Assembly (NCBI GenBank): GCA_964370805.1
Contig: CAYJKM010000001.1
Location: 9,220 to 73,219, forward strand
DNA length: 64,000 nt
Reading direction: 5' to 3'
From: an uncultured Alphaproteobacteria bacterium
GTDB lineage: Bacteria > Electryoneota > RPQS01
Shown here: positions 7,186 through 36,951 of the stretch, piece after piece
How positions within the stretch are numbered: the first letter of the stretch is position 1
Layout: each line of letters begins with the position of its first letter
Made by a program: the position numbers and the translations under genes
Notes under the pieces: model-generated
Seen by the model: only the letters and a program-made list of their open reading frames with translations
The model's database searches: none
What the model was told of the DNA's origin: nothing

Positions 7186-7238
7186 CGTCCCGGTCATTGC
7201 CTCCACTCTGTGGAGGAGAATTCGAAACAGGAGGCCCT

Positions 7239-8861: not shown

Positions 8862-8904
8862 CACGCGCCGCGTGCCATCCTGAACAAACTGAAGGATCTC
8901 TCTG

Positions 8905-10461
8905 GTGAGAATACTCGTGATGAAGGTGCTCTCCATTCTACTGATTGTGACTTCGGCCTGCGCCGTCGACTACATGTATCTCTCGGATAATGAGACGACC
9001 GTGTTCGGCGACCGCATTCGCTGGTGGCATGAAGATACAGTGGGCACGGCGATCCGCACGAATGACTGCTTCGCGATCATGGAAAATCCGGTGTTCTATG
9101 GCCCGGTCATTCAGGCCGGCGAGAACTGTGATTGCTGTGATCCGCCCTGCGTCTGCGGTGTCCCGCCTTATCCGTTTCCCGAAACCGCCGATTGGCTGCG
9201 CGGTTTGGCTCTGCATGAGATGTCGGAACCGGACACAGTTTGGTGGGCCAACTATTACTTTGATCAAGGTGCGAATGACCAGGCCTTTGTCAAAATCACG
9301 CCGGAGTACTTGCACATCTGGTGGGGAGTGTGGGGAATACCGGTGGATACAGTCTTTGGAATCGACGAAATTCGGTCGCTCAATTCGTATCGACACGTGA
9401 TATATTTCGATTGTCCCATCCGTATTTCCGGTGTGGTCGGCGGCTATCTCATCATTGCCTCCAGCGGCACGATCGGCATTGCGGATAATATCGTTTACGA
9501 AAGTTCCACGATGCCGTACGGCATACCGACGCCGGGACACTCCGAACGCTTTGCCCTCGTCGCCGAAGGCAACATCAAGATTCTGAACAATCCCTTCAAT
9601 GGCCGCGAGAACTGCAGCGGTTTCGGCCCGGGTGGCACAAACGACCCGGATCTGAAAGACGTCGCGCTGAACGGTTATTACGTCGCGCTCAACCAGAGTT
9701 TCACCTTTGAGCAGCAAAACGACTGCGTGGACAGCGCCTATTGCGGCCCAACACCCGATGAACGCGGCACGATCCGGCTCTGGGGCGCGCTCGCGCATAA
9801 GCGGCGCGGTTATGTCCATCGCTCCAATCATGGCGGTACGGGCTACGCAAAGCAGTATCGCTGGGATCCCGAACTCGCGGACTTCGACGCCGGCGTGTTC
9901 AATCACACGGCCAATCGTTTCACGCCGGATTCGCTCGTCTTCGGCGACGTGGCTGTCGGGGATTCGCTTTGGGATACGCTGTTCGTGGACAATTACCGCC
10001 AGGCGGTCGGGCTGGCCGCCGTCTTGACCTCACCGCCGTTCCACACTCCGCCGGTTTCGTACGAGTACGGCCAGCACTTCGCCTTTCCGGTGCGCTTTGC
10101 GCCGCAGAATGTGGGCACGTTCTACGGCAACATCTCGATGAACATCGCCGGCGACTATTATCAGGTTCCAATCACGGGTCGCGGCATCTCCGGTGGCTCC
10201 GCCATCCCCGAGCCGTCCGTGTATCCCAATCCGTTCAACAACACGGCCACGATCTCGTTTCTCCTTCCCGTCGGCAGTGACGTCCGCGTGGACGTCTTTG
10301 ATGTGCTCGGCCGCCACGTGCAAACACTGCTCGATGGCCAGCGCGAGGCCGGCTTGCAACGCGTGAACATTGACGGACGCCGCCTTGCCTCCGGAGTGTA
10401 TTTCGTCCACCTGAACACGCCCGCGCAGCACTTTACCCGCAAGATTCTGCTCATCAAGTGA
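8905..10461 (+). CDS. TP3, tandem paralog with Cys-rich insert
   Basis: GTG at 8905 (AAGGA 8 nt upstream) or ATG at 8920. Motifs DYMYLSDNETTVFGDRIRWWHEDT, ERFALVAEGNIKILNNPFNGREN and SFTFEQQNDCVDSAYCGPTPDERGTIRLWGALAHKRRGYVHRSNHGGTGYAKQYRWD. Insert AGENCDCCDPPCVCG. CTD is YPNPFNNTATISFLL...SGVYFVHL...KILLIK. Confidence 0.85.
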   Translation: MRILVMKVLSILLIVTSACAVDYMYLSDNETTVFGDRIRWWHEDTVGTAIRTNDCFAIMENPVFYGPVIQAGENCDCCDPPCVCGVPPYPFPETADWLRGLALHEMSEPDTVWWANYYFDQGANDQAFVKITPEYLHIWWGVWGIPVDTVFGIDEIRSLNSYRHVIYFDCPIRISGVVGGYLIIASSGTIGIADNIVYESSTMPYGIPTPGHSERFALVAEGNIKILNNPFNGRENCSGFGPGGTNDPDLKDVALNGYYVALNQSFTFEQQNDCVDSAYCGPTPDERGTIRLWGALAHKRRGYVHRSNHGGTGYAKQYRWDPELADFDAGVFNHTANRFTPDSLVFGDVAVGDSLWDTLFVDNYRQAVGLAAVLTSPPFHTPPVSYEYGQHFAFPVRFAPQNVGTFYGNISMNIAGDYYQVPITGRGISGGSAIPEPSVYPNPFNNTATISFLLPVGSDVRVDVFDVLGRHVQTLLDGQREAGLQRVNIDGRRLASGVYFVHLNTPAQHFTRKILLIK

Positions 10462-10468
10462 GGCCAGC

Positions 10469-12031
10469 ATGAGACTCTTTCTGCAGATTCTTTGCTTCGT
10501 CCTGCTGCTTGTGCTCTTCATCGGGGCGGCGGAAGCATTGAACTATACGTACCTCTCGGATATCGAGATGACGACCTTTGGGGATCGCATCCGCTTCATG
10601 CGGGAAGATAGTATCTGCGGTATTATTCGCACCAATGGTCAATTCGCGTTCTTTGAAGACTTTGTGCCACCGTGTTGTCTTGTAATTATGGGAGATGCAG
10701 GCTCAAATTTCGAGTCAAATCCCGACTGCCCGCAGAATTACATGCCGAACATCCTACCAACGGTGATTCCCATTGACCCGTCCGGCCTGCGCAACTCAGC
10801 GTTGGTGAATGGTACCTTTTACGACCAAGGGGAGATGGATCAGGCCACGATTCACATCGTCGGCGACGAACTGCTGGTCTGGTGGGGAGAGTTGGGTCAA
10901 CCGGTGGATACGACCGTTGCGCCGACGGCCATTGTAGTCAACCCCGATCAACCCGTCCATTACTTTGATTGCATGTTGCGAGTCTCGGGCACTCTGAGCA
11001 GCAGTCTGATCCTGATCGGCGTGAGCAAAGTCGGACTCGAAGACAATATACTTTATGCAAGCTCCGACCCTGTGACTGGCGCGCTGACGGAAAATCATCC
11101 CGAAAAGTTCGCGCTCGTCTCGCTGGGCGACATCAAGATTCTCAACAATCCTGCTAACGGCCGTCTGAACTCTAATGGCCTCGGCCAGGATCAAACCAAT
11201 CCCGATTCCACAAGTATCGCCTTGAACGGCTTTTATTTCGCTCTCGGCAGTTACTGGGCCGATGCGGCAGGCAGTTTCACGTTCGAAAATCAGAATGACT
11301 GTGTGGACAGCGGCTACTGCGGACCGTCTCCCGATGAACGCGGCAAGATGTATTTGTGGGGCGGCATCACACAGCGGCGGCGCGGGTATCTGCACCGTTC
11401 CAACAATGGTGGAACTGGATACATCAGACGCTGGCACTGGGACGAAGAGTTGGCTGACTGGGACATCGGCGTGTTTGATGAGGATCATTTTGCGGATCCC
11501 GACACGGTCTTTTTCGGCGACGTGCCCGTCGGCAGCATTGCCCGTGACACGGTCGAGTTGAATCTGTTCGATTACAGCACGCTCGGTGCAGTGATTGCCT
11601 CGCAACCCTTTGACGCTGAGCGGATCGAGCCGTTTTTCGGTACGCACTTCCACGTCCCCGTGAGCTTCGAACCCATTCAATCCGGCAACTACTCCGGCAT
11701 GCTGAATATCAGCACCACGTATCAGTTCTTCCAGATCCCGTTGTACGGCCATGCCGTGCCGGGGAACGGGCCTGTGTTCGAGCCATCCGTCTTTCCGAAT
11801 CCCTTCAACAACACGGCCATGATTTCGTTCCGTCTGGAAACCGCCAGTGACGTGCGCGTCACACTGTATGACATTCTTGGCCGCCACGTTTCGACATTGC
11901 TCGATGAGCATCGCCTGGCCGGAATTCAGCAGGTTCAGATCAACGGTCAAGCGTTGGCTTCGGGTGTTTACTTCGCGCGGCTGGAGACTCCCGCATTCGG
12001 ACGGACGATCAAGGTGCTCCTTCTGAAATGA
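10469..12031 (+). CDS. TP4, tandem paralog
   Basis: Starts 7 nt after the TP3 stop. Motifs LNYTYLSDIEMTTFGDRIRFMRED, EKFALVSLGDIKILNNPANGRLN and SFTFENQNDCVDSGYCGPSPDERGKMYLWGGITQRRRGYLHRSNNGGTGYIRRWHWD. CTD is FPNPFNNTAMISFRL...SGVYFARL...KVLLLK. Confidence 0.85.
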   Translation: MRLFLQILCFVLLLVLFIGAAEALNYTYLSDIEMTTFGDRIRFMREDSICGIIRTNGQFAFFEDFVPPCCLVIMGDAGSNFESNPDCPQNYMPNILPTVIPIDPSGLRNSALVNGTFYDQGEMDQATIHIVGDELLVWWGELGQPVDTTVAPTAIVVNPDQPVHYFDCMLRVSGTLSSSLILIGVSKVGLEDNILYASSDPVTGALTENHPEKFALVSLGDIKILNNPANGRLNSNGLGQDQTNPDSTSIALNGFYFALGSYWADAAGSFTFENQNDCVDSGYCGPSPDERGKMYLWGGITQRRRGYLHRSNNGGTGYIRRWHWDEELADWDIGVFDEDHFADPDTVFFGDVPVGSIARDTVELNLFDYSTLGAVIASQPFDAERIEPFFGTHFHVPVSFEPIQSGNYSGMLNISTTYQFFQIPLYGHAVPGNGPVFEPSVFPNPFNNTAMISFRLETASDVRVTLYDILGRHVSTLLDEHRLAGIQQVQINGQALASGVYFARLETPAFGRTIKVLLLK

Positions 12032-12034
12032 CTC

Positions 12035-12058
12035 GTAGGGACATGGCTTGCCATGTCC
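12035..12058 (+). repeat. GTAGGG-prefixed hairpin (REP-B family) between TP4 and TP5
   Basis: GTAGGGACATGG-CTTG-CCATGTCC with an 8-bp stem GGACATGG/CCATGTCC. It begins 3 nt after the TP4 stop. Confidence 0.6.
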
Positions 12059-12076
12059 GATAGGAGAACAATTCTC

Positions 12077-13660
12077 ATGCGTAGCGCACTCCGCAAATTC
12101 CTGCTCGTCGCAATCGTCCTCACGCTCGCGACCTCCGCGCGTGGTCAAAATGTGTATTCGTGGCTGACGGACATCGAAACGCGTCCATTTGGTCCCGACG
12201 ATGACTACCAACCCTTTGGACCGTTCGATGGCATAAACGGCATCGTGCGTTCCAACGACACGATCACCATCGCCGGTTCTCCTGTGTTTGACTGGATCAT
12301 CACACATGCCCCGCTTTTCGAGCACGGCCCGGATTATAACCCGACCTTCAACGTCCCTCCCACTTTCAATGCTTCACTGATCGGATTTCCTGAATACGCC
12401 GAGAACCTGCGCAACTATGCCACTCATTACTTCAACCCCGGCTCGGACAAGCAAATGCGCATGGTAATCAACGGATCGACACTGCACCATTTTACTTGGG
12501 ACTTAGGTGAGGCGTTTGATTCGCTCGAATGCATTTCCGATCAGATTGAGATTCCGCAGGGTGAAGGCAGCGGTCTCTGTGTCTTTACGGAGACGCGGCT
12601 GGAACTCGCCGGAACGGAGATTACCGGCCGCATTACGATTGGCTCGGCGCAACAAATTCGCCTGATGGACGATGTTCGGGTCGGTGTGGAATACACGAGT
12701 GGTCCGCCGGAGTACCGCATACAGGAGTGGTGCCCCCACTACATCGGCATCGTCAGCGAAGGCGATATTAAGATTGCGAACACGCCGCGGAACGGCCGCG
12801 AAAATTCGAGCGGAATGGGCATGGAGCAGCCTAATCAGGCATATACGGACATCATCATTCATGCGGACATGATCGCTCTCGGCAGCTTCGAGTTCGAGCA
12901 GCAGAACGACCCGGACAGCGGCTACGTCTGCGATTGCAGTCCCGACTGGCGCGGCGACATCTGGTTCTGGGGCGCGCTGCAGCAGTGCGAGCGCAGCTAC
13001 CTTTCCCGCACGAACAACGGCGGCACGGGTTACCGACTGCATCACCGCTTTGACACCCGCCTGCTCATGCAGCGGCCGCCCTGCTTCTTCAGTCCTATCG
13101 ATTCCAGCGGCGGGCCTCAAACTACGGACACACTCTTTTTTGGTGAGGTTGCGGTCGGCACCACGGTCTGGGACACAGCGCATGTCTATCCGATGATGCA
13201 GAGTTACCTCGGCGCCGTCATCGCTTCCTATCCGTTCTATGCTGAGCGGATCGAGCCGTTCTGGGGTACTCACTTCACGATTCCCGTCAGCTTCACTCCC
13301 GCGCAAACCGGGCAGTACACCGGGATGCTCAATGTGAGCACCTCGTATCACTATTATCAAATCGTTCTGCGCGGCACCGGCATTCCTGGCAGTGCGCCGC
13401 CGATTGCCGAGCCGTCCGTCTATCCCAATCCCTTCAACGCGGTAACCACGTTGACGTTTGAACTGGAAAGCGCCGGCGTGGTCAAGCTGGAACTCTACAA
13501 TACCCTCGGCCAACTCGTCGCCACGCCGCTTGAACAATCTTACGAAGCCGGACGGCATCACGCGGTCATCTCCGCCGCCGACTTGCCATCCGGTGTTTAC
13601 TTCGCACGGCTCACGACACCGACACAACATTCCATGCACAAGTTATTGTTGATCAGATAG
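12077..13660 (+). CDS. TP5, most divergent tandem paralog
   Basis: ORF 12053..13660. ATG at 12077 has AGGAGA 9 nt upstream and gives signal peptide MRSALRKFLLVAIVLTLATSARG. The 12053 ATG lies inside the hairpin. Motifs GIVRSNDTITIAGSPVF, SFEFEQQNDPDSGYVCDCSPDWRGDIWFWGALQQCERSYLSRTNNGGTGYRLHHRFD. CTD is YPNPFNAVTTLTFEL...SGVYFARL...KLLLIR. Confidence 0.8.
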   Translation: MRSALRKFLLVAIVLTLATSARGQNVYSWLTDIETRPFGPDDDYQPFGPFDGINGIVRSNDTITIAGSPVFDWIITHAPLFEHGPDYNPTFNVPPTFNASLIGFPEYAENLRNYATHYFNPGSDKQMRMVINGSTLHHFTWDLGEAFDSLECISDQIEIPQGEGSGLCVFTETRLELAGTEITGRITIGSAQQIRLMDDVRVGVEYTSGPPEYRIQEWCPHYIGIVSEGDIKIANTPRNGRENSSGMGMEQPNQAYTDIIIHADMIALGSFEFEQQNDPDSGYVCDCSPDWRGDIWFWGALQQCERSYLSRTNNGGTGYRLHHRFDTRLLMQRPPCFFSPIDSSGGPQTTDTLFFGEVAVGTTVWDTAHVYPMMQSYLGAVIASYPFYAERIEPFWGTHFTIPVSFTPAQTGQYTGMLNVSTSYHYYQIVLRGTGIPGSAPPIAEPSVYPNPFNAVTTLTFELESAGVVKLELYNTLGQLVATPLEQSYEAGRHHAVISAADLPSGVYFARLTTPTQHSMHKLLLIR

Positions 13661-13670
13661 GAGCGCCCTC

Positions 13671-15215
13671 ATGAACAAAACAGCTCAGTATCTTCATTTT
13701 GCGGCGCTGCTTGTGGCCCTTTGCGGAGCAGCCTATGGAATCAACTATGCATATCTTTCCGACCAAGAGCTGACCGTCTTCGGCGACCGCATTCGGTTCT
13801 GGCATGAAGATACGTTGAGCGGCCCCGTCCGCTCAAACTACCAGATTGCCATCATGGAGAACCCCGTTTTCTATGACATCGTCATTCAAGCGGGATCCTG
13901 GACCGACTTCGAGCACGTCTCCGGATACAACCCGTGTTTTCTCGGCCCGCCGCCGGTCTTCCGAGCGCGGCCGATCTGGATTCCCGACCAAGCCTATCAC
14001 TTGCACGAAAACGCCACGCAGATCTTCGCTCCCGGTGCCGGCCAGCAAATGAAGATCGAAATCGACAGCAACTTCGCCCGGCTTTACACCTGGCCGATCG
14101 GGATCGGCTTCAATGGCGCCGATCCTGTGGTTGATTCCATGTTGCTGAACTCGACGGAGATCTTGTTCTTCGAATGTCCGCTGCGAGTTGAAGCCAGAGT
14201 CGCGGGGGATATTACGCTCGCCAGCACGCACAGCATCGGCCTGGATGACAACGCGACGTGCGTGGATGCCGATTCCGTCACGGGCAGAATGCCCGAAGAA
14301 AGCGAGAATTTTCTGACGCTGGTCGCGGAAGGTGAAATCATTGTCCGCAACACCCCGGAGAATGGACGCAATAATTCGGACGGGTTAGGACACGATCAGA
14401 CTGATCTCGATCTCCGCGACATCGTGATTACGGCCAACGTGTTCGCGCTGGGCGGCAGCTTTACCTTCGACCAGCAGAATGATCCGGACAGCGGCTACCA
14501 GGGTCCCTCGCCGGACGAGCGCGGCATCATCTGGCTTTATGGCGGACTGACGCAGCATCGCCGTGGCTACGTGCATCGTTCCAATCACGGCGGTACCGGC
14601 TATGCCAAGGTTTACCGCTATGACGAGCGATTACGCGCCCGACTCAACCCCGTCCTCGGGCCGTTCGGAAACGAGCCGCCGGATACCTTGTATTTCGGCG
14701 ACGTTGCCGTCGGCGAGATTTTGTGGGACACGTTGGAGCTGCATCCCGAATTGCCCGGTACTCTGGGTGCAGTCCTCGCGTCGTATCCGTTCTGGGCCGA
14801 ACGGATTGAGCCATTCTTCGGCAGTGATTTCGTGATTCCCGTTCGCTTCGCTCCACCATCCGTCGGTCCTCATACCGGCATGCTGACGATCGTCACCACC
14901 TATCAAACCTTCCAAATTGTCCTCCGGGGCACAGGAATTCCCGGCAGTGCGCCGCCGATTGCTGAGCCGTCCGTCTATCCGAATCCGTTCAACAACAACG
15001 CGGCGATCTCATTCACGATTCCCGTTGCCGGGCACGTGTCGCTCGAACTCTACGACATCCTCGGCCGCCGCGCGCTGACGGTCTTCGATGACGACGTCCT
15101 GCCCGGCTCGCAAAGCCTGCGAATTGATGCGCAAACTCTCGCTTCCGGCATCTACTTCGCGCACCTCCGCACACCGTCACAGCAGAAAACCATGAAGCTG
15201 CTGCTCGTTAAGTGA
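13671..15215 (+). CDS. TP6, tandem paralog
   Basis: AGGAG SD. Signal peptide ends GAAYG|INYAYLSDQELTVFGDRIRFWHEDTLSGPVRSN. Motif SFTFDQQNDPDSGYQGPSPDERGIIWLYGGLTQHRRGYVHRSNHGGTGYAKVYRYDERL. CTD is YPNPFNNNAAISFTI...SGIYFAHL...KLLLVK. Confidence 0.85.
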   Translation: MNKTAQYLHFAALLVALCGAAYGINYAYLSDQELTVFGDRIRFWHEDTLSGPVRSNYQIAIMENPVFYDIVIQAGSWTDFEHVSGYNPCFLGPPPVFRARPIWIPDQAYHLHENATQIFAPGAGQQMKIEIDSNFARLYTWPIGIGFNGADPVVDSMLLNSTEILFFECPLRVEARVAGDITLASTHSIGLDDNATCVDADSVTGRMPEESENFLTLVAEGEIIVRNTPENGRNNSDGLGHDQTDLDLRDIVITANVFALGGSFTFDQQNDPDSGYQGPSPDERGIIWLYGGLTQHRRGYVHRSNHGGTGYAKVYRYDERLRARLNPVLGPFGNEPPDTLYFGDVAVGEILWDTLELHPELPGTLGAVLASYPFWAERIEPFFGSDFVIPVRFAPPSVGPHTGMLTIVTTYQTFQIVLRGTGIPGSAPPIAEPSVYPNPFNNNAAISFTIPVAGHVSLELYDILGRRALTVFDDDVLPGSQSLRIDAQTLASGIYFAHLRTPSQQKTMKLLLVK

Positions 15216-26743: not shown

Positions 26744-26797
26744 ATGTAAAGGCGCACAACATGTGCGCCCCATTTCCAACATCACTTGTACACCAAG

Positions 26798-26828
26798 AAA
26801 GCCAACCCTTCCGGATTGGCTTTTTGTA
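26798..26828 (+). terminator. intrinsic terminator of the DUF1015 gene
   Basis: AAAGCCAACC-CTTCC-GGATTGGCTTT followed by TTTTTG. Confidence 0.6.
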
Positions 26829-26830
26829 TT

Positions 26831-26862
26831 CTCTGACTCGAATTTTGAATTTTGGTTCTTAC
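26831..26862 (+). repeat. heptamer-array element (HA family), copy a
   Basis: CTCTGACTCGAATTTTGAATTTTGGTTCTTAC. It overlaps the stop codon of the minus-strand CDS 26859..27587. Confidence 0.7.
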
Positions 26863-27587
26863 CGCCTGCTTCGCCGCTCATAGCGGCGTCCGTCGTCACG
26901 GCGACCTCCTCGATTCCCGTCATCCCGACGACGATGATCATCCCGGTCCCGTCCCCGCCACTCACGGTCGCGGTCATGTCCGCCGCGATGATGTCCGCGA
27001 TCCCAGCCGGGATGCGGACGAGGTCCGTAGTTCGGCCCCCGCCAATAGTGTTGGTGCCAATCGCGGTAGTGATGCCGCCAGCGCGGACCGTACCAGTAAT
27101 AGCGCGGCGGGGGCGGAGGCGCGTAGATGTAATGCGTCGGCGCGCAGTCGTACCAGATCACGTAAGAATCGTGACACGGTCCCCAACCGGAACTGTAGTA
27201 GTAATCGTCGTCATTCACCCAGTACGGAATGCCTTCACCGCTTGCGAGTTCAAAGTGGAAATTCGGTCCCCAAATCCCGCCCGCAAAATACCACTCGCTG
27301 CGGCCATCCGGATCGTACCACGCATCCACGTCCACTTCCATGCCGCTGCGCAAGCGATAGCCGCGCTCCCGCCAATACGACTGCGGACCAAGTTGGACGC
27401 CCACTCGCTGACCGCTGCTTGTGCGAATGTACGCCTCTTGCCCCTCAATTCGCTCCACCACACCCGAGACGCGCTGGCGCTGCAAGTCCCGTTTGTGCTC
27501 GGCGCTTGCCGCCGTTGCCAGAGTCAATATACCTATGAGCAGCATGCTCATCAGAATCATGCTTCGGTGTCGCATCGTCAACCTCAT
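26859..27587 (-). CDS. secreted protein RH1: conserved beta-rich domain plus extreme Trp/Tyr/Pro then Arg/Asp/His-rich tail
   Basis: Signal peptide MILMSMLLIGILTLATAASA. Conserved block GQEAYIRTSSGQRVGVQLGPQSYWRERGYRL shared with RH2. In the last 55 aa, 20 are Arg, 10 Asp and 5 His (…GHHRGGHDRDREWRGRDRDDHRRRDDGNRGGRRDDGRRYERRSRR). Confidence 0.7.
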   Translation of the reverse strand: MRLTMRHRSMILMSMLLIGILTLATAASAEHKRDLQRQRVSGVVERIEGQEAYIRTSSGQRVGVQLGPQSYWRERGYRLRSGMEVDVDAWYDPDGRSEWYFAGGIWGPNFHFELASGEGIPYWVNDDDYYYSSGWGPCHDSYVIWYDCAPTHYIYAPPPPPRYYWYGPRWRHHYRDWHQHYWRGPNYGPRPHPGWDRGHHRGGHDRDREWRGRDRDDHRRRDDGNRGGRRDDGRRYERRSRR

Positions 27588-27664
27588 GCCGTTAAATCGA
27601 CCATTCTGATTATTGGATGCTCACCTGCCTTCGAGGTTTAAAGCAGTTCGCAAATCCTTGTAAA

Positions 27665-27745
27665 CCAAACATCAAAACTACAAACCTCAAACCCGAGGCC
27701 GCTCCGCATAGATTTGACCTTTGAAGTTTGAGGTTTGATTTGTCG
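27665..27745. repeat. hairpin built from opposed heptamer arrays
   Basis: CAAACCTCAAAC (27681-27692) is the perfect complement of GTTTGAGGTTTG (27727-27738). It is followed by TTGTCGGC/TTGTCCGT/CTGTCAGT octamers and nested palindromes GTCGAGATCTCGAC and GTCCGAC...GTCGGAC up to 27815. Confidence 0.65.
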
Positions 27746-27818
27746 GCTTGTCCGTCTGTCAGTCCGACAAAGTCGAGATCTCGACCTTTTTGGTCGGACT
27801 TGTCAGTCCATCGGCTTG

Positions 27819-28421
27819 TTAGTGATGATGTCGTCCCCGGTCATGGTGACGCTTCTTGGCATGCCCCGGCGGCACGCGTTTCTCCTTGATGATTTTGGTC
27901 GGCGGTGCCGCTTCGTAGCGATAGATGTACGTCGGTTGGTACCAGACCTCATAGACCTCATACGTCGGATACCACCCGCGTTCGTATTCGTATTCCGTCA
28001 CCCAGTACGGCCGCCCAACGTCATTCGTCAGTGAAAACGAAAATCCCGGCCCGGCAATGCTGCCCGCAAAGAACCAGTCACTGCGCTCGTACGGATCAGA
28101 CCAGCCCACCACCGTTACGCGCTGCCCCGGCACCAGGCGATATTCCCGATGCTCCCAGTACGATTGCGGCCCAAGCTGCACGCCCACGCGCTGCCCACTC
28201 GAGGTGCGAATGTACGCGACTTGCCCGCGCACGCTTTCCACCTCTCCCCGAATCTTCTGCCGTTTCAATTTCTTCTTCTGATTCTTCACCACCACGATTT
28301 GGTTGCTGCGGCCTCCGTCACGGCGCGACCACGATCCGGGGTACGATCCCTCCCCGACTGCCGTGAACGCCATGATCATGATGAGTATCATGCTCATCCG
28401 CAGGATTATGCGATGTTTCAT
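27819..28421 (-). CDS. secreted protein RH2, paralog of RH1 with a shorter His/Lys/Arg tail
   Basis: ORF 27819..28526. ATG 28421 has GGAGGG 7 nt upstream and gives signal peptide MKHRIILRMSMILIMIMAFTAVGEG. Block GQVAYIRTSSGQRVGVQLGPQSYWEHREYRL. Tail PPGHAKKRHHDRGRHHH. Confidence 0.7.
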   Translation of the reverse strand: MKHRIILRMSMILIMIMAFTAVGEGSYPGSWSRRDGGRSNQIVVVKNQKKKLKRQKIRGEVESVRGQVAYIRTSSGQRVGVQLGPQSYWEHREYRLVPGQRVTVVGWSDPYERSDWFFAGSIAGPGFSFSLTNDVGRPYWVTEYEYERGWYPTYEVYEVWYQPTYIYRYEAAPPTKIIKEKRVPPGHAKKRHHDRGRHHH

Positions 28422-28494
28422 GATCAGTCCCTCCTTGTTCATTCTGCTGAGTTCATCCCGTTCTAAGAACCCAGTCGTTGGCCGTCTCCCCGCT

Positions 28495-28522
28495 TTAATC
28501 AAAACGTCCGGCCAAGCCGGAC
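28495..28522 (-). terminator. intrinsic terminator (minus strand)
   Basis: Minus strand reads GTCCGGC-TTG-GCCGGAC then GTTTTGATT. Confidence 0.55.
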
Positions 28523-28697
28523 GCAATGCAAATTAACTGTTAATGATACGTTCCGGGTCGGACTCCTGGCGGATTGAACGTTCGATTCTCACTTGACAGA
28601 GGATCGTTGTGTCAATCCGCCTCTTTTTCAGACTTCAAATCGGCGCCTCTATTTGCCGCCGTTGTTGAAGAGGAATCCGGCTCGTTTAATCGTGGTC

Positions 28698-29064: not shown

Positions 29065-29244
29065 TCAGCGATCCATGTCGCTGCCCTGACGCTCGTCAAT
29101 CTTCTCGCGTCCGGGCATCTGCTCACGATTCGGATTGCGATCAGGCTGCGGATTCGCGCGGCCGCCACCCTGGTCTTCATTCTCGCGGTCCGGATCCGAC
29201 TGATTGCCCTGACCTCCACCCGGTTGCCGATTGTCTCTTGGCAT
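29065..29244 (-). CDS. 59-aa highly hydrophilic Gly/Asp/Arg/Asn/Gln-rich protein (not in the supplied ORF track)
   Basis: Hand translation of the minus strand gives MPRDNRQPGGGQGNQSDPDRENEDQGGGRANPQPDRNPNREQMPGREKIDERQGSDMDR*. GGGAGGG lies 7 nt upstream of the ATG at 29244. It falls below the 60-aa track cutoff. Confidence 0.55.
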   Translation of the reverse strand: MPRDNRQPGGGQGNQSDPDRENEDQGGGRANPQPDRNPNREQMPGREKIDERQGSDMDR

Positions 29245-31666: not shown

Positions 31667-32035
31667 CTACTGTTTTGGCCTGGACTTGTGTATAATCGTG
31701 ACGATTATCGCGATGATCTCGCTTATCTCGCGGAGTATCGCCTCCAACCGTACCGACTTGACTATCTCTCCATCACGGAGCAGTTCGAGCCAGTAGCGCG
31801 TCTCCTGCGCTTCCTGCAAAGCCCCCTCTAACTTGCTGATGAAGTCGGCTTGCGACTTCGCAAAATTGGCTTCAGAGAGCTGTGCACCGATGGACGTCCC
31901 GCAGCAAAAAAGTTGACTCGCCAACTTCTGACCCGTGGTTGTCTTTGGCAGCGCGTCGCAAAGTCGCATGATCCGGCGAGAAAAGTTCGATGTGCGCCTG
32001 AGGATGTCATTGCCTTCAATGGCGGCCAGCCTCAT
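31667..32035 (-). CDS. four-helix-bundle protein (23S rRNA intervening-sequence / Avd-like family)
   Basis: FSRRIMRLCDALPKTTTGQKLASQLFCCGTSIGAQLSEANFAKSQADFISKLEGALQEAQETRYWLELL matches the TIGR02436-type pattern. Confidence 0.8.
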   Translation of the reverse strand: MRLAAIEGNDILRRTSNFSRRIMRLCDALPKTTTGQKLASQLFCCGTSIGAQLSEANFAKSQADFISKLEGALQEAQETRYWLELLRDGEIVKSVRLEAILREISEIIAIIVTIIHKSRPKQ

Positions 32036-33926: not shown

Positions 33927-33970
33927 ATTCGGACAGACCTTGCCCTCGGGTGAGGTCTGCGTTGTTTTTG
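33927..33970 (+). promoter_or_regulatory. conserved leader hairpin E1 (terminator-shaped)
   Basis: ATTCGGACAGACCTTGCCCTCGGGTGAGGTCTGCGTTGTTTTTG. An 11-12-bp stem plus U-tract ending 11 nt before ATG 33982. Near-identical to E2 at 47477-47520 (minus strand). Confidence 0.5.
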
Positions 33971-33981
33971 ACAATCGCGAT

Positions 33982-36951
33982 ATGAAGGTCTTAAGTCGTA
34001 TAGTCTTTGCGCTTTCTTCCCTTCTGCTACAGATCTCGGCGAGCAGAGCTGACACGACGTTTGTCTCTGGATCAATAGCGGGCATGTGGACGATAGACGG
34101 CGCTCCCTATGTGATAAATGGCGCAGCCTGGATATCTATCACAGATACACTGGCGATTTTAGAAGGTGTGGAAGTTATTCTGCCTGACGAGAATTCTGTT
34201 CTACGCATTGAAGGAACTTGCTTGGCTTTGGGAACGGATTTGGATAGCGTTTCCCTGCACCTTGACCATCCACAAGCACAGATTCGGTCGGGTCTTACAA
34301 ATCCTGGAAGAAAGCTGTGGCTGAGTTATATCCATGTTGATGGGAACGGTGAATGGAATACCGATATTGATTCGGTATTGATTAGGCATTCATCATTCAC
34401 ATTAGCGATGCAAGACGTCATGATCTTTTCGGGCTCTTTTATTCGCGTGGATTCGTGTACTATCCGCGCAATTCTCTTGATCAACGCTGACATGAATATT
34501 CTCTCGACTAAGATCGAAAACTATCTAGGCATGATCAACACAAGAAGTATAGTAGACCGTCTATGGGCACAGTCCGGTACTGGTGATCCAGCGGTCATTG
34601 CGTTCAATCCCTTGGCTGGCGATTCACTCATTCTAATGCGCAGCAGGATAGATGAGTTACACTTGTCCTACCAAATGGCCCCGTACTCGGCGGCCTGGAT
34701 CTCGCAGTGTGATATCACACGATTTGAAGCAGGCGAAGGTCAAAGAACATTCGTTGATTCGAGCCGCATCGCAGAATTCGACATTGAGGAAATGGGTGGA
34801 TACGTCATTCGCTGCATTGTCGGCAGAATGTTCATCCACTATGGGGCCCCGGGACTAGAGCCTGAATTGGATTTGCAAAACAACACTTTTATTTGGTCAC
34901 TTTGTTGTCTTGATTACGGTCCGTCTGCGTTTCTTTGGTACTCGAATGGTCTTGGAACGCGTCGCCAAGTGACCCTTAGAAACAACATCTTCTTTTCACC
35001 CAGATCGGAAGTCACGGTACTTTGTGAGGAGAATGACATTTTGATCGAGCCCCCAAGCTACAATATTGCATATGGTATGAGTACCCCGTGGCTTGATCAT
35101 GATTTGGGTCCCGGCAATCTGACCGAAAATCCTCTATTCGACCCCAATTCAGAGGCATTTGTACTACAGTATCCGTCCATGGCTATTAATGGTGGTGATC
35201 CGTCACTGGAAGACCCCGACGGATCGCGCCGTGACATTGGTGCGGCGTGGTGGGATCTAAGATATGATCATCCTCCAATTATTTCTACACCGAATAGAAT
35301 AGATCTTCGGTGGGGTGACAATTTCGAGTTATGGGCCACGGCTACGGATGATGGTCCGGTGGATGTCTATTGTCCACTGTCGAGTACATTGCCTGCATGG
35401 CTTGGATACAGCCGTGCTTTAGATAGCGACACGGCACTCCTTTTTGCAGGCAGAGTTCCGTTTGGCGCCGAATCAGTTACCGTTCCACTCATTGCTCTCG
35501 ACAGTCAGGGTCAAGCGGATTCTGAGTTAGTTCAGATCAACGTTTTTCCAAGTTCGATCCTTCCTGATACGATTGCTGGGCGTCTTGTTCCTGATTTTTC
35601 CCCATACTTGGCCACACATGACGTCATAATTCTACCGCCAGATTCTTTAACAATGTTGCCAGGCGTAACCATATCTTTTGACTCCGTTGACTGCATGCCT
35701 ACGCTGCTCGTTTATGGAATATTGAACTCACTTGGGTCAGCGAGCGACAGCGTATTCTTGAAATCTGCCAACGGATCCTTATGGCGAGGAATTTACGCTG
35801 AAGGACTTGCGGCACAATTGGACATGCGCTATACAGGAATCTCAGGAGCGTTGTATGGTGCCTACCTTCAAGAATGTACTAGCGCAACATTTTCACACTC
35901 ACGTATGTCGGCTATCAGCGAAAATTCATTAGTCGCTCGTGACCTTGCTGATAGTCTGATCATTCATCTCTGTGAATTCGATCAAAGCATAGGTGTCGTG
36001 AACACGAGATGCCTTATCGACTCTTCATGGACGCTGCCGACAAGCAATAGTAAAATCTCGCTTAGTGACGCCGTAGGTCTTATCAGCGAATGTCGGATCT
36101 ACGGAGGTGTGACGGTACGCGGAATGTCAGACGTGATAATCCAGCGGTGCCTGTTTCGTCCATCAGGGGATGCCGCATCCGTTGCCGTGTTGCCGGAGGT
36201 GCCAGGTGAACTGTGTGCCGCTCGCATTTATAATAATACTTTCTACGGCAATGAGCAGCCGAGCCGCTTCATTTGTTTATGTGCAGGATCTGTCCTCAAT
36301 ACACTTTCGGCTGAAATAGTGAATAATATATTCCATGGCTCGAACTACGCGATTCAGGTTAGTCAAGTCAGTAATGCAAGCCCAGTTCAAATTAGCAATA
36401 ACTGTATTTGGCAGTGTGACCAGTTCCTTTCGGATACAACGGGTCGTTGGTCGCCGTTTGGAGTAATGTTTGAAACCAATCTGAACGGAGATAGTACTGA
36501 CGTTTACGCCAATCTGATCGCTGATCCCTTGCTTATCGGTGATTCGCTTATTCCGGATCTTGCATCCCCCTGTATTGATGCTGGTATTGATGTTGGCCTC
36601 AGTTTTTGGGGTGCGGCACCAGATATTGGTTATATTGAGCAATCTTTGACAGATCTAAAAGACCCCTCAGGTTATGCCACGAAGGATGAATCTGTTGACG
36701 TCAATCTTGGAGTTTATCCTAATCCTGCCAATAATGGCTTCCGCATCAGCTTTCATGGATTCTCTGGACCAACATATTTGACATTATTTAACGTACTCGG
36801 GCAAGAAATTCTCGTTCGCGAATTTCGTTCCACTCCGTCTCTTCGGCAAACGTTTCTACTTAACGGCAGTCACTTGCCTTCTGGTCGTTACATCATTCGC
36901 GTGAGCGACAAGACCCACAGCACCTTCAAACAGATTACGCTCTTGCAGTAA
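33982..36951 (+). CDS. large (989 aa) beta-helix-like secreted protein with T9SS CTD, in a low-GC segment
   Basis: ORF 33940..36951. ATG 33982 gives signal peptide MKVLSRIVFALSSLLLQISASRA. Repetitive N/S/I-rich strands such as NNTFYGN, NNIFHGSNYAIQV and NNCIWQ resemble a right-handed beta-helix. CTD is VYPNPANNGFRISFHG...SGRYIIRV...KQITLLQ. Confidence 0.8.
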   Translation: MKVLSRIVFALSSLLLQISASRADTTFVSGSIAGMWTIDGAPYVINGAAWISITDTLAILEGVEVILPDENSVLRIEGTCLALGTDLDSVSLHLDHPQAQIRSGLTNPGRKLWLSYIHVDGNGEWNTDIDSVLIRHSSFTLAMQDVMIFSGSFIRVDSCTIRAILLINADMNILSTKIENYLGMINTRSIVDRLWAQSGTGDPAVIAFNPLAGDSLILMRSRIDELHLSYQMAPYSAAWISQCDITRFEAGEGQRTFVDSSRIAEFDIEEMGGYVIRCIVGRMFIHYGAPGLEPELDLQNNTFIWSLCCLDYGPSAFLWYSNGLGTRRQVTLRNNIFFSPRSEVTVLCEENDILIEPPSYNIAYGMSTPWLDHDLGPGNLTENPLFDPNSEAFVLQYPSMAINGGDPSLEDPDGSRRDIGAAWWDLRYDHPPIISTPNRIDLRWGDNFELWATATDDGPVDVYCPLSSTLPAWLGYSRALDSDTALLFAGRVPFGAESVTVPLIALDSQGQADSELVQINVFPSSILPDTIAGRLVPDFSPYLATHDVIILPPDSLTMLPGVTISFDSVDCMPTLLVYGILNSLGSASDSVFLKSANGSLWRGIYAEGLAAQLDMRYTGISGALYGAYLQECTSATFSHSRMSAISENSLVARDLADSLIIHLCEFDQSIGVVNTRCLIDSSWTLPTSNSKISLSDAVGLISECRIYGGVTVRGMSDVIIQRCLFRPSGDAASVAVLPEVPGELCAARIYNNTFYGNEQPSRFICLCAGSVLNTLSAEIVNNIFHGSNYAIQVSQVSNASPVQISNNCIWQCDQFLSDTTGRWSPFGVMFETNLNGDSTDVYANLIADPLLIGDSLIPDLASPCIDAGIDVGLSFWGAAPDIGYIEQSLTDLKDPSGYATKDESVDVNLGVYPNPANNGFRISFHGFSGPTYLTLFNVLGQEILVREFRSTPSLRQTFLLNGSHLPSGRYIIRVSDKTHSTFKQITLLQ

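What the first reader, a model, noticed from the sequence alone, without database searches (positions are those of the whole stretch)
26859..28421. Two paralogous secreted proteins with extreme Trp/Tyr/Pro and Arg/Asp/His low-complexity tails
RH1 (242 aa) and RH2 (200 aa) share a signal peptide and a conserved domain: (V/E)..(I/V).GQ.AYIRTSSGQRVGVQLGPQSYW....YRL..G..V.V..W.DP..RS.W(Y/F)FAG.I.GP.F.F.L. RH1 then runs into YYYSSGWGPCHDSYVIWYDCAPTHYIYAPPPPPRYYWYGPRWRHHYRDWHQHYWRGPNYGPRPHPGWDRGHH. Its final 55 residues contain 20 Arg, 10 Asp and 5 His. RH2 ends in HAKKRHHDRGRHHH. Such composition in an exported protein is very unusual. It suggests binding of polyanions or metals (nucleic acid, polyphosphate, mineral surfaces) or phase-separating/matrix behaviour. 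I cannot name the family.
Basis: partly seen in the sequence, partly recalled or inferred. Interest (0 to 1): 0.65.

Follow-up and report, generated by a model that had tools for sequence, protein, structure and literature searches.

The report
Exported MamS/MamX-like proteins with charged tails
Two neighbouring genes encode exported proteins with a small barrel domain related to the magnetosome proteins MamS and MamX, followed by a floppy, positively charged tail rich in arginine, aspartate and histidine; they are real and belong to a rare, unstudied family, but their function is only inferred.

Summary
RH1 (26859-27575, minus strand; the likely start is 4 codons inside the ORF, giving 238 aa) and RH2 (27819-28421, minus strand, 200 aa) are true paralogues: 44% identity, E=1e-46. 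Substitutions against an orthologue fall mostly on RH1's third codon positions (42/36/113), so the longer antisense ORF 26763-27641 is a by-product.

The family can now be named at domain level. The N-terminal domain is an OB fold of the MamS/MamX/ExtJ superfamily (Pfam PF26390). It is not an orthologue of any of the three.

About 30 residues of the supposed aromatic low-complexity tail are a conserved, confidently modelled extension of the OB fold. It probably carries one disulfide. Only the part from PPPPP onward is disordered.

The disordered tail keeps its composition but not its sequence across about 40 relatives. It is net positive in 36 of 38, rich in R, G, D and H, and has almost no hydrophobic residues.

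The aromatic-tailed subfamily looked up here always lies in one conserved neighbourhood of T9SS-rich uncultured genomes.

Function is inferred only. These are most likely periplasmic binders of metal ions, mineral surfaces or anionic ligands. Interest is moderate.

The parts
26859..27575 (-). RH1 coding sequence (238 aa plus stop). An alternative upstream ATG at 27587 would add MRLT.
   Evidence: ORF. Start supported by GAGG at 27582-27585 and by homologue N-termini. Third-codon-position excess of substitutions, 42/36/113.
27501..27575 (-). RH1 Sec-type signal peptide MRHRSMILMSMLLIGILTLATAASA, with predicted cleavage after ASA.
   Evidence: Read from the sequence: basic n-region, about 17-residue hydrophobic core, AXA motif. 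Modelled as a helix at low confidence. No lipobox, no twin-arginine motif, no T9SS C-terminal domain. No signal-peptide predictor was run.
27219..27494 (-). RH1 OB-fold domain of the MamS/MamX/ExtJ type (residues 28-119).
   Evidence: AlphaFold pLDDT 84-98. Foldseek finds OB folds, including YgiW 1nnx. A profile of this domain finds 242 cluster representatives. Of 115 of the more distant relatives among the 150 listed, 62 hit NCBIfam MamS, 23 MamX and 15 ExtJ.
27126..27218 (-). RH1 folded aromatic extension VNDDDYYYSSGWGPCHDSYVIWYDCAPTHYI (residues 120-150), with a probable Cys134-Cys144 disulfide.
   Evidence: pLDDT about 81-86 with the 35-sequence alignment. 84% identity to the orthologue with substitutions 7/6/24 by codon position, measured over residues 120-175. 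The two Cys co-occur: 13 sequences have both, 19 neither, 3 one only.
27006..27125 (-). RH1 Pro/Tyr/Trp/Arg/His segment YAPPPPPRYYWYGPRWRHHYRDWHQHYWRGPNYGPRPHPG (residues 151-190). Motifs are semi-conserved and no stable fold is predicted.
   Evidence: pLDDT falls from 65 to below 50. PPPPP and GPRWR are conserved within the RH1 clade.
26862..27005 (-). RH1 disordered Arg/Asp/His/Gly tail (residues 191-238), ending in the basic cluster RRSRR.
   Evidence: pLDDT below 50. Composition. Residues 151-238 have pI 11.2 and charge +12.6, against pI 4.95 and charge -6.8 for the folded part. Composition is conserved in relatives. Substitutions 19/20/36 by codon position over residues 176-238 show it is translated under relaxed constraint.
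27819..28421 (-). RH2 coding sequence (200 aa plus stop).
   Evidence: ORF. AGGAGG at 28430-28435. The database copy P0011 differs by one residue and carries a precomputed PF26390 hit. Substitutions against the orthologue are 69/48/111 by codon position.
28347..28421 (-). RH2 signal peptide MKHRIILRMSMILIMIMAFTAVGEG. The cleavage site is less canonical than in RH1.
   Evidence: Read from the sequence; aligns with the RH1 signal peptide.
28002..28277 (-). RH2 OB-fold domain (residues 49-140).
   Evidence: Aligned to the RH1 domain. Profile match of 157.9 bits for P0011.
27906..28001 (-). RH2 aromatic extension VTEYEYERGWYPTYEVYEVWYQPTYIYRYEAA (residues 141-172), without Cys.
   Evidence: Aligned with the RH1 extension. 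Conserved in RH2-type relatives P0012, P0013, P0018 and the L003 orthologue.
27822..27905 (-). RH2 short basic tail rich in His and Lys, PPTKIIKEKRVPPGHAKKRHHDRGRHHH (residues 173-200).
   Evidence: Sequence. His-rich C-termini recur in RH2-type relatives P0012, P0018, P0021 and P0040.
28504..28524 (-). Terminator-like hairpin about 80 nt upstream of RH2. It suggests RH2 is not co-transcribed with the genes upstream of it.
   Evidence: Consensus scan only: 9-pair stem with 7 GC pairs and a T-rich tail. This is not evidence of function.
26751..26769 (.). Perfect 7-bp GC-rich hairpin (GGCGCAC-AACAT-GTGCGCC) between the convergent DUF1015 gene and RH1. It may be a bidirectional terminator.
   Evidence: Read from the sequence. 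The terminator scan did not flag it. Inference.

Best explanation
RH1 and RH2 are an old tandem pair of Sec-exported, probably periplasmic proteins.

Anatomy (shown or modelled):
- Each has an acidic globular head. It is an OB-fold barrel of the MamS/MamX/ExtJ superfamily plus a conserved aromatic extension of about 30 residues. In RH1 a disulfide probably clamps the extension.
- Each has a basic, disordered tail. In RH1 this is a proline/aromatic stretch followed by an Arg/Asp/His/Gly tail of about 50 residues (tail region charge about +13). In RH2 it is a short tail rich in His and Lys.

Mechanism (inferred, not shown): the OB head docks on a periplasmic partner or surface. The tail's His and Asp side chains, together with many Arg, capture a charged inorganic ligand. 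Candidates are transition-metal ions, oxyanions or polyphosphate, or a charged mineral surface. The protein would then buffer, hand over or coat that ligand. This would make the pair accessory factors in periplasmic metal or mineral handling. That is the setting in which the named members of the superfamily are found: MamS and MamX in magnetite crystal growth, and ExtJ in the Geobacter Ext cluster.

Status of each step: existence, export signal, paralogy, fold and domain-level homology are shown. Disorder is modelled. Tail composition conservation is shown. The disulfide, the periplasmic location and the ligand are all inferred.
For: - Gene reality and frame.
- Fold: AlphaFold gives pLDDT 80.7 and pTM 0.77, with residues 1-120 of the mature protein confident. 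Foldseek returns OB folds, including periplasmic YgiW.
- Superfamily: precomputed PF26390 hits on the RH2 copy P0011, on the RH2 orthologues and on the relatives P0019, P0036, P0123, P0141 and P0072. The RH N-domain profile retrieves 242 cluster representatives. Of 115 of the more distant ones listed, 62 hit NCBIfam MamS (best 1e-20), 23 MamX and 15 ExtJ. Of the 35 close relatives, 4 hit MamS and 4 hit ExtJ.
- Metal or mineral theme:
  - MamS is a magnetosome protein that regulates crystal size and shape, and MamX acts in redox control of biomineralisation (PMC8788322, PMC3905215).
  - ExtJ is a small periplasmic protein in a cytochrome conduit cluster (PMC6148476).
  - RH2-type tails are His-rich.
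  - Small single-domain relatives end in Cys/His clusters such as CPPCPGCRW, CCGCNRGRW and HHHYHHHHGCCP.
  - In L001 the RH1 homologue lies 50 nt downstream of a 7-haem cytochrome c.
  - In L015 a relative follows a Met/His-rich exported protein next to an ECF sigma factor.
- Tail: composition and net positive charge are conserved in 36 of 38 relatives, and Asp far exceeds Glu and Arg far exceeds Lys in the short R/D/H-type tails, including RH1's.
- Motif: a degenerate (G/D)W(D/N/H)(R/G)G motif occurs 23 times, against 6.8 +/- 2.4 in shuffles. The pattern was defined after seeing the data.
Against: - There is no binding, localisation or expression data.
- The biochemical role of the MamS/MamX/ExtJ domain is itself unknown, so homology transfers a setting, not a mechanism.
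- RH1 and RH2 score far below the NCBIfam cut-offs for all three named families.
- The window shows no adjacent metal transporter, regulator or cytochrome that is specific to the pair. The neighbours (DUF1015, MgtE, DEAD helicase, Nramp, abhydrolase, aldo-keto reductase, ferredoxin) are a conserved housekeeping block, and the RH slot within it is variable.
- An Arg-dominated, net-positive tail is not a typical cation-binding sequence and would fit anionic ligands better.
- No riboswitch or other known RNA element lies upstream.
Confidence: 0.35

Rival explanations
1. The pair are periplasmic accessory modulators of envelope-stress or two-component signalling, working like ZraP, CpxP or Spy. 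The OB head would bind the sensor domain of a kinase or anti-sigma factor. The tail would sense a stress cue such as metal, pH or misfolded envelope proteins.
For: - In Thermodesulforhabdus norvegica and Thermosulfuriphilus sp., small MamS_MamX-domain proteins with Cys-rich tails lie 15-23 nt upstream of a HisKA-HATPase kinase and a sigma54-dependent response regulator.
- A third relative lies near other kinases.
- The RH relative P0036 lies next to a divergent ECF sigma factor.
- A hybrid PAS histidine kinase lies about 6.4 kb away in the window and is syntenic.
Against: - The operon linkage is seen only for distant superfamily members, not for the RH subfamily.
- In the window, L001 and L003 no kinase or sigma factor is adjacent.
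- The syntenic kinase is separated from the pair by four housekeeping genes.
Confidence: 0.2
2. The pair bind envelope polyanions or act as tethers, working like the YgiW/YdeI stress OB-fold proteins. The OB head would bind an oligosaccharide such as peptidoglycan or the LPS core. The Arg-rich tail would stick to anionic lipids, LPS, extracellular DNA or acidic polysaccharide, and so protect or stiffen the envelope.
For: - OB folds commonly bind oligosaccharides or oligonucleotides (PMC3905215).
- YgiW appears among the Foldseek matches: TM-score 0.58 normalised to the target, 22% identity.
- Tails are net positive in 36 of 38 relatives and often end in RGGRR, RGRR or RIRGR. Distant relatives end in (Y/W)RGGR.
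- Some clade members carry long basic tails rich in Lys, Gln, Ser and Pro instead.
Against: - There is no sequence match to the NirD/YgiW/YdeI model for the RH subfamily at E<=1. Only 1 of 115 distant relatives matches at E<=0.01.
- The high His and Asp content is not needed for polyanion binding.
- No cell-wall or LPS genes are adjacent.
Confidence: 0.2
3. The pair form a self-assembling matrix or condensate. The acidic head and basic tail, plus dense Tyr, Trp and Arg residues that favour self-association, would drive head-to-tail or cation-pi association into a gel or coacervate. Metal ions might cross-link it, in the periplasm or on the cell surface.
For: - The charges are split: the head has pI 4.95 and charge -6.8, and the tail has pI 11.2 and charge +12.6.
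- Aromatic residues make up 16-18% of the protein, and Arg makes up about 30% of the tail.
- AlphaFold predicts disorder from PPPPP onward.
Against: - The argument rests on composition alone.
- There is no secretion signal beyond Sec and no T9SS C-terminal domain, although the genome uses T9SS heavily.
- Nothing suggests the high expression a matrix protein would need.
Confidence: 0.1
4. The feature is an annotation artefact. Either the real gene is the antisense ORF 26763-27641, or the tails are untranslated.
For: The antisense ORF is longer than RH1 (292 aa) and stays open over most of the orthologue as well.
Against: - Substitutions fall on RH1's third codon positions (42/36/113), including in the tail (19/20/36).
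- RH1 has a paralogue at E=1e-46.
- Ten homologues keep the same architecture.
- The RH1 frame gives a confident structure model.
Confidence: 0.02

Closest known systems
MamS and the C-terminal domain of MamX (magnetosome proteins; Pfam PF26390 MamS_MamX; NCBIfam NF040991 and NF040996)
   Same: - Homologous OB-type domain carrying the LGP..(Y/F)W and G.P.W motifs.
- An N-terminal hydrophobic segment places the domain outside the cytoplasm.
- A short basic, Gly/Arg-rich C-terminus is common across the superfamily.
- The OB fold was predicted for MamS on a YgiW template (PMC3905215), and YgiW is also recovered here.
   Different: - RH1 and RH2 score far below the MamS and MamX cut-offs (no hit at E<=1).
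- They have no magnetochrome CXXCH motifs, and the window has no multihaem ORFs. None of the window genes annotated here is a magnetosome gene.
- RH proteins have a cleavable-looking signal peptide rather than a membrane anchor.
- They add an aromatic folded extension and a long Arg/Asp/His tail that MamS and MamX lack.
ExtJ (NF040942), a small periplasmic protein of the Geobacter sulfurreducens extHIJKL cluster
   Same: It is a small Sec-exported protein. Weak to moderate profile similarity covers the first strands of the barrel: RH1 E=0.17, best 3e-4 among close relatives, and 1.8e-13 among distant ones.
   Different: ExtJ is about 77-104 aa with no tail. It is encoded with a porin-like protein, a rhodanese and cytochromes (PMC6148476, PMC5877670). 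Only one RH locus (L001) has a cytochrome neighbour.
YgiW/YdeI/NirD 'bacterial OB fold' stress proteins (NF033674)
   Same: They are periplasmic single OB folds of similar size. There is fold-level similarity to 1nnx: Foldseek E=5e-3, TM-score 0.58 normalised to the target.
   Different: No sequence-profile match for the RH subfamily. These proteins have no aromatic extension and no charged tail.
ZraP, CpxP and Spy periplasmic accessory proteins, and His-rich metal-binding tails such as those of HypB, SlyD and UreE (analogy recalled from memory, not tested)
   Same: They are periplasmic or metal-linked proteins in which low-complexity tails rich in His, Asp, Gly and Met bind metal. ZraP is paired with a kinase and a sigma54 response regulator, as the distant relatives P0141 and P0123 are.
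   Different: The folds are unrelated (helical LTXXQ proteins and others). There is no sequence similarity. The Arg dominance of the RH1 tail is not typical of these proteins.

Membership tests
MamS/MamX-type OB domain superfamily (Pfam PF26390) | Significant profile match to the domain. | tested here: met
   - Precomputed PF26390 hits: P0011 (RH2 with one substitution); RH2 orthologues, weak; P0019, P0123 and P0072, strong; P0036 and P0141, weak.
- The RH1 clade has no precomputed hit.
- RH1 and RH2 domains are 60% identical or more. Their joint profile retrieves proteins of which 62 of 115 hit NCBIfam MamS, best 1e-20.
- The local Pfam copy lacks this model, so the negative results say nothing about membership.
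MamS/MamX-type OB domain superfamily (Pfam PF26390) | Five-stranded OB barrel placed outside the cytoplasm behind an N-terminal hydrophobic segment. | tested here: met
   The AlphaFold model is confident, and Foldseek's top matches are all OB folds. The signal peptide was read from the sequence. The actual location was not tested.
MamS (NF040991) or MamX (NF040996) orthologue | Score above the family cut-off (200 and 400 bits). | tested here: not met
   RH1 and RH2 give no hit at E<=1. The best among 35 close relatives is E=8e-4.
MamS (NF040991) or MamX (NF040996) orthologue | Location in a magnetosome gene cluster; for MamX, magnetochrome CXXCH motifs. | tested here: not met
   None of the 158 family proteins held has a CXXCH motif. 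The window has no ORF of 80 aa or more with two or more CXXCH motifs. The neighbours are housekeeping genes. Not every ORF in the window was scanned.
ExtJ (NF040942) | Score above 52.5 bits and location in an extHIJKL-type cluster. | tested here: not met
   RH1 scores 12.3 bits, E=0.17. No ExtI-like porin or rhodanese gene is adjacent among the annotated neighbours.
NirD/YgiW/YdeI stress OB fold (NF033674) | Profile match to the domain model (35 bits). | tested here: not met
   No hit at E<=1 in RH1, RH2 or the 35 close relatives. Similarity is at fold level only.
Type IX secretion cargo | C-terminal Por_Secre_tail sorting domain. | tested here: not met
   RH1 and RH2 have no Pfam hit, while several neighbouring genes do carry the domain. 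The RH C-termini are disordered basic tails.
Sec-exported soluble periplasmic protein | Cleavable type I signal peptide, no lipobox, no further membrane segment. | tested here: inconclusive
   The sequence features fit: a basic n-region, a hydrophobic core and ASA-E in RH1. RH2's site is less canonical. The co-varying Cys pair fits an oxidising compartment. No signal-peptide predictor and no experiment was available.

The most novel reading that the evidence does not exclude
The MamS/MamX-type OB head plus an Arg/His/Asp/Trp/Tyr tail is a mineral-templating or metal-cross-linked, condensate-forming module. It would operate in the periplasm of a non-magnetotactic, uncultured lineage rich in type IX secretion genes. 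That would make it a relative of the magnetosome crystal-growth machinery reused for another inorganic phase, such as Fe or Mn oxide, polyphosphate, silica or Se(0). RH1 and RH2 would act as a pair.
Probability: 0.1. Interest if true: 0.75.

Novelty: new variant of a known kind. Interest (0 to 1): 0.4.

Why it matters
The MamS/MamX domain has a Pfam entry, but no biochemical role is reported in the papers consulted here. This work shows that the domain is widespread outside magnetotactic bacteria, with 242 clusters at 50% identity. It almost always sits behind an export signal, and it is usually followed by a short or long basic tail rich in Gly/Arg, His or Cys.

The RH subfamily is the extreme case. 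It has a folded aromatic extension and a 50-90 residue disordered basic tail. If the tails bind metals, oxyanions or mineral surfaces, these proteins would be tractable soluble models for what MamS and MamX do in magnetite growth. They would also be rare examples of functional disordered regions in the bacterial periplasm. If not, they remain lineage-specific hypothetical proteins.

Tried and rejected
- **Local Pfam and NCBIfam scans of RH1 and RH2** gave nothing except ExtJ at E=0.17. The local Pfam copy lacks PF26390, so its silence is uninformative. The weak DUF5666, DUF5818, Rep_fac-A_3 and Myosin_N SH3-like hits only indicate a small beta-barrel.
- **The search for homologous proteins with the domain alignment A2** returned no hit, not even the family itself. 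The RH1 tail alone also returned nothing. The second result probably reflects composition filtering. Neither is informative.
- **Sequence search of PDB chains** with the family profile found no relative.
- **Genome-collection scan** found only the MAG already known, which is titled 'uncultured Alphaproteobacteria'. That label is doubtful because its genes carry T9SS sorting domains.
- **Metagenome scan** gave four short contigs with no context.
- **Context look-ups for P0023, P0014 and P0033** gave contigs under 2 kb.
- **Rfam** at gathering threshold over the whole window and at E<=5 upstream of RH2 found no riboswitch, only chance miRNA-type matches. There are no tRNAs.
- **Tandem repeat search** found no DNA repeat underlying the RH1 tail, so it is not a recent slippage expansion.
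- **Multihaem cytochrome partner in the window** was rejected: tblastn with the L001 cytochrome and a CXXCH count both found none.
- **T9SS cargo** was rejected.
- **Antisense ORF as the real gene** was rejected.
Full report

Both ORFs are present on the minus strand at the stated coordinates. The quoted sequences and counts are exact. RH1's last 55 residues contain 20 Arg, 10 Asp and 5 His, and RH2 ends in HAKKRHHDRGRHHH. BLASTP of RH1 against RH2 gives 44% identity over 180 residues, E=1e-46.

RH1 most likely begins at the second ATG (27575). GAGG lies 7 nt upstream (27582-27585). The database copy P0001 and most homologues start MRHR, MRYR or MKHR, as RH2 does. That makes RH1 238 aa rather than 242. 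RH2 has a strong AGGAGG at 28430-28435.

**2. Which strand codes?**

I aligned RH1 codon by codon with its orthologue in locus L003.

| Region | Differences at codon positions 1/2/3 |
|---|---|
| Whole gene | 42/36/113 |
| OB domain | 8/5/41 |
| Aromatic part | 7/6/24 |
| Charged tail | 19/20/36 |

RH1's third positions coincide with the antisense ORF's first positions. The pattern therefore shows purifying selection on the RH1 frame. It also shows that the tail is translated under relaxed constraint.

The antisense frame is also open over most of the orthologue. This is what a sense strand made of Arg, Asp, Gly, His and Pro codons produces. RH2 shows the same third-position excess, 69/48/111.

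**3. How common is the family?**

A word-indexed search of 5.8 billion proteins found 11 proteins. Ten are RH1-type and one is RH2 with a single substitution.

An exhaustive HMMER search of 1.84 billion cluster representatives used a profile of the 92-residue N-terminal domain. It found 242 proteins at E<=1e-3 and 54 at E<=1e-10.

About 40 of these share the full RH architecture:
- a signal peptide;
- one copy of the domain;
- about 60 residues that are 35-58% Trp, Tyr, Phe and Pro;
- in most, a hydrophilic tail.

The remaining relatives fall into three groups:
- proteins with 2-4 tandem copies of the domain, often ending in (Y/W)RGGR;
- membrane-anchored single-domain proteins of about 180-200 aa;
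- small exported proteins of 125-165 aa with Cys/His-rich C-termini, such as CPPCPGCRW, CCGCNRGRW and HHHYHHHHGCCP.

**4. What is the N-terminal domain?**

AlphaFold2 with the 12-sequence family alignment modelled residues 32-110 as a beta-barrel at pLDDT 80-93. With a 35-sequence alignment of the mature protein, the mean pLDDT was 80.7 and pTM 0.77. Foldseek against the PDB returns only OB folds: RPA14, IF1, CspA, Ten1 and, at rank 8, the periplasmic E. coli protein YgiW (1nnx). A profile search of PDB sequences finds no relative.

The family identity comes from three independent lines.

(a) Precomputed Pfam annotations assign PF26390 (MamS_MamX) to several proteins. These are the RH2 copy P0011 and the RH2 orthologues (weak), and the relatives P0019, P0123 and P0072 (strong) and P0036 and P0141 (weak).

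(b) I scanned 115 of the more distant relatives retrieved by the RH profile against NCBIfam. Of these, 62 hit MamS (best 1e-20), 23 hit MamX (best 6e-10) and 15 hit ExtJ (best 1.8e-13).

(c) Of the 35 close relatives, 4 hit MamS (best 8e-4) and 4 hit ExtJ (best 3e-4).

RH1 and RH2 themselves fall far below the cut-offs of all three named families. They are members of the domain superfamily, not orthologues. The local Pfam library used by hmmscan lacks PF26390: P0123 has a strong precomputed hit but none locally. Its negative results therefore do not bear on membership.

The literature predicts that MamS is a membrane anchor plus an OB fold modelled on YgiW (PMC3905215). It describes MamS as a magnetosome-localised protein that regulates crystal size and shape, and places MamX in redox control of biomineralisation (PMC8788322). 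ExtJ is a small periplasmic protein of unknown function in the extHIJKL cluster (PMC6148476, PMC5877670).

**5. What is the 'tail'?**

It has three parts.

*First part.* The roughly 30 residues after the barrel are conserved across the whole subfamily as G.P.W(V/A)..DY..GW.P....Y..(W/Y)Y...P...Y. In RH1 they read VNDDDYYYSSGWGPCHDSYVIWYDCAPTHYI. They are 84% identical to the closest orthologue when measured over residues 120-175. With the deeper alignment they are modelled at pLDDT 81-86 with two short helices. This stretch is a folded extension of the OB domain, not low complexity. Its two cysteines co-occur across the family: 13 sequences have both, 19 have neither and 3 have one. This fits a disulfide and hence an oxidising, extracytoplasmic location. 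That is an inference.

*Second part.* From PPPPP onward (YAPPPPPRYYWYGPRWRHHYRDWHQHYWRGPNYGPRPHPG) confidence drops from 65 to below 50. Only short motifs (PPPPP, GPRWR) are conserved within the RH1 clade.

*Third part.* The final roughly 50 residues are predicted disordered. They are 49% identical to the orthologue.

Across 38 relatives the tails keep their composition rather than their sequence. The pooled values are R 17.6%, G 13.6%, D 8.1%, H 8.1% and P 7.7%, with L+I+F+M below 2.5%. In the short R/D/H-type tails, including RH1's, Arg far exceeds Lys and Asp far exceeds Glu. Thirty-six of the 38 tails are net positive. Many end in RGGRR, RGRR or RIRGR.

A degenerate motif (G/D)W(D/N/H)(R/G)G occurs 23 times, against 6.8 +/- 2.4 in residue shuffles. 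I defined the pattern after seeing the sequences, so the excess is overstated.

RH1 is electrostatically split. The head has pI 4.95 and charge -6.8. The tail region has pI 11.2 and charge +12.6. No DNA tandem repeat underlies the tail.

RH2-type proteins have shorter tails rich in His and Lys or Glu, such as HAKKRHHDRGRHHH, HMKKHHETHERHEDGHRHGRR and EHEQHEQHKREERRGH.

**6. Genomic setting**

The window's gene order runs: Nramp, DEAD helicase, MgtE, DUF1015, then RH1 and RH2 on the opposite strand, then about 1.3 kb without a long gene, then abhydrolase, aldo-keto reductase, a 23S-IVP protein and a ferredoxin. This order recurs at 71-83% nucleotide identity across the flanking genes in loci L001 and L003. 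Parts of it recur around the more distant relatives P0032 and P0036.

All these genomes encode many proteins with T9SS sorting domains. The aromatic-tailed members whose context could be read therefore seem to belong to one uncultured lineage. The only genome record is labelled 'uncultured Alphaproteobacteria', which I doubt.

The slot that holds the RH genes is variable:
- RH2+RH1 in the window;
- small ORFs, RH2 and RH1, followed by a T9SS beta-propeller protein, in L003;
- a 7-haem cytochrome c followed 50 nt later by an RH1-type gene in L001;
- an ECF sigma factor, a Met/His-rich exported protein and an RH relative in L015.

The window itself has no multihaem cytochrome. No known RNA element lies upstream of RH2. 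A terminator-like hairpin lies about 80 nt upstream of RH2, so the pair is probably transcribed on its own.

For distant superfamily members in cultured or named taxa, the small Cys-tailed proteins sit directly upstream of a histidine kinase and a sigma54-dependent response regulator. This holds in Thermodesulforhabdus norvegica and Thermosulfuriphilus sp..

**7. Most likely mechanism**

Shown or modelled: the pair are exported paralogues with an OB head, a folded aromatic extension, and a tail that is predicted disordered, basic and His/Asp-bearing, with conserved composition.

Inferred: the head docks on a periplasmic partner or surface. The tail captures a charged inorganic ligand, namely metal ions, oxyanions or polyphosphate, or a mineral surface.

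The inference rests on four things:
- the settings of named superfamily members (magnetite growth; an Ext cluster);
- the His-rich RH2-type tails;
- the Cys/His C-termini of small relatives;
- the cytochrome and Met/His-rich neighbours in two related loci.

It is weak, for three reasons. No member's biochemistry is known. The neighbours in the window are housekeeping genes. An Arg-dominated tail fits anions better than cations. I put it at about 0.35.

The rivals are:

| Rival | Confidence |
|---|---|
| Accessory role in envelope-stress or two-component signalling | 0.2 |
| Polyanion or envelope binding, as in YgiW-type proteins | 0.2 |
| Self-assembly into a condensate or matrix | 0.1 |
| Annotation artefact | 0.02 |

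**8. Comparison with the known, and novelty**

At domain level this is a member of a known Pfam family that lacks a described biochemical role. The added aromatic extension and the long Arg/Asp/His tail were not found in any family model or paper searched here, and the RH subfamily is very rare. I therefore rate it a new variant of a known kind.

Its 'cannot name the family' is now resolved. Its functional guess remains untested. Interest is moderate (0.4): the composition is unusual for an exported bacterial protein, and the link to MamS and MamX gives a concrete hypothesis. No result here points to a new kind of system.

Noticed in passing
window 5587-15215 (+): Six consecutive paralogous ORFs of 514-554 aa, with 33-54% pairwise identity. 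The two that were scanned end in a T9SS Por_Secre_tail sorting domain and have no other Pfam hit. This is a tandem array of secreted proteins of unknown function.
   Followed up: partly
window 29065-29244 (-): A 59-aa, extremely hydrophilic ORF (MPRDNRQPGGGQGNQSDPDRENEDQGGGRANPQPDRNPNREQMPGREKIDERQGSDMDR). It has a GGGAGGG ribosome-binding site and no signal peptide. An orthologue lies at L003 6732-6896. There is no Pfam hit. It sits in the otherwise gene-poor 1.3 kb between RH2 and the abhydrolase gene, and its composition resembles the RH1 tail.
   Followed up: partly
window 33940-36951 (+) and 51374-53214: A 1003-aa beta-helix protein with a T9SS sorting domain has GC3 of 0.46, against about 0.7 for its neighbours. 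Three ORFs around 51.4-53.2 kb also have low GC3 (0.46-0.54). They may be horizontally acquired.
   Followed up: no
L001 8847-9950: A 367-aa exported c-type cytochrome with seven CXXCH motifs lies 50 nt upstream of the RH1-type gene in MAG GCA_964406405.1. It occupies the position that RH2 has in the window.
   Followed up: partly
L015 8341-10092: The RH relative P0036 is preceded, 29 nt upstream, by a 144-aa exported protein rich in Met, His, Arg and Pro (motifs such as MHRREAMRHRG and PEHRMGPRH). A divergent ECF sigma factor lies next to that. The arrangement resembles a metal or envelope-stress module.
   Followed up: partly
L016 6001-9114 and L017 6001-9063: In Thermodesulforhabdus norvegica and Thermosulfuriphilus sp., small MamS_MamX-domain proteins with Cys-rich C-termini lie 15-23 nt upstream of a HisKA-HATPase kinase and a sigma54-dependent response regulator. 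This looks like a conserved three-gene unit.
   Followed up: partly
proteins P0063, P0066, P0089, P0095, P0100, P0108, P0110, P0113, P0138, P0140 (distant relatives): Multi-repeat superfamily members from unrelated contigs end in a Gly/Asn-rich stretch followed by (Y/W)RGGR close to the C-terminus. The RH1 clade ends in RGGRR or RIRGR. This may be a shared C-terminal motif of unknown meaning.
   Followed up: no
window 27588-27818: The 230-nt spacer between RH2 and RH1 holds a 23-nt palindrome (27758-27799) and a perfect 12-nt inverted repeat (27681-27692 and 27726-27737) with CAAACCT repeats. BLAST aligns only about 10 nt of it with L003, immediately upstream of RH1. It may be a terminator or a regulatory hairpin.
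   Followed up: no
window 31667-32035 (-): A gene for a 23S rRNA-intervening-sequence protein (PF05635, E=7e-19) lies between the ferredoxin and aldo-keto reductase genes. The distant syntenic contig of P0032 also has one, between its ferredoxin and abhydrolase genes.
   Followed up: no
tools: The local Pfam-A copy has no PF26390 model, although the precomputed annotations use it. The search for homologous proteins returned nothing, not even self-hits, for an alignment query and for the low-complexity tail. These negatives should not be read as absence.
   Followed up: yes
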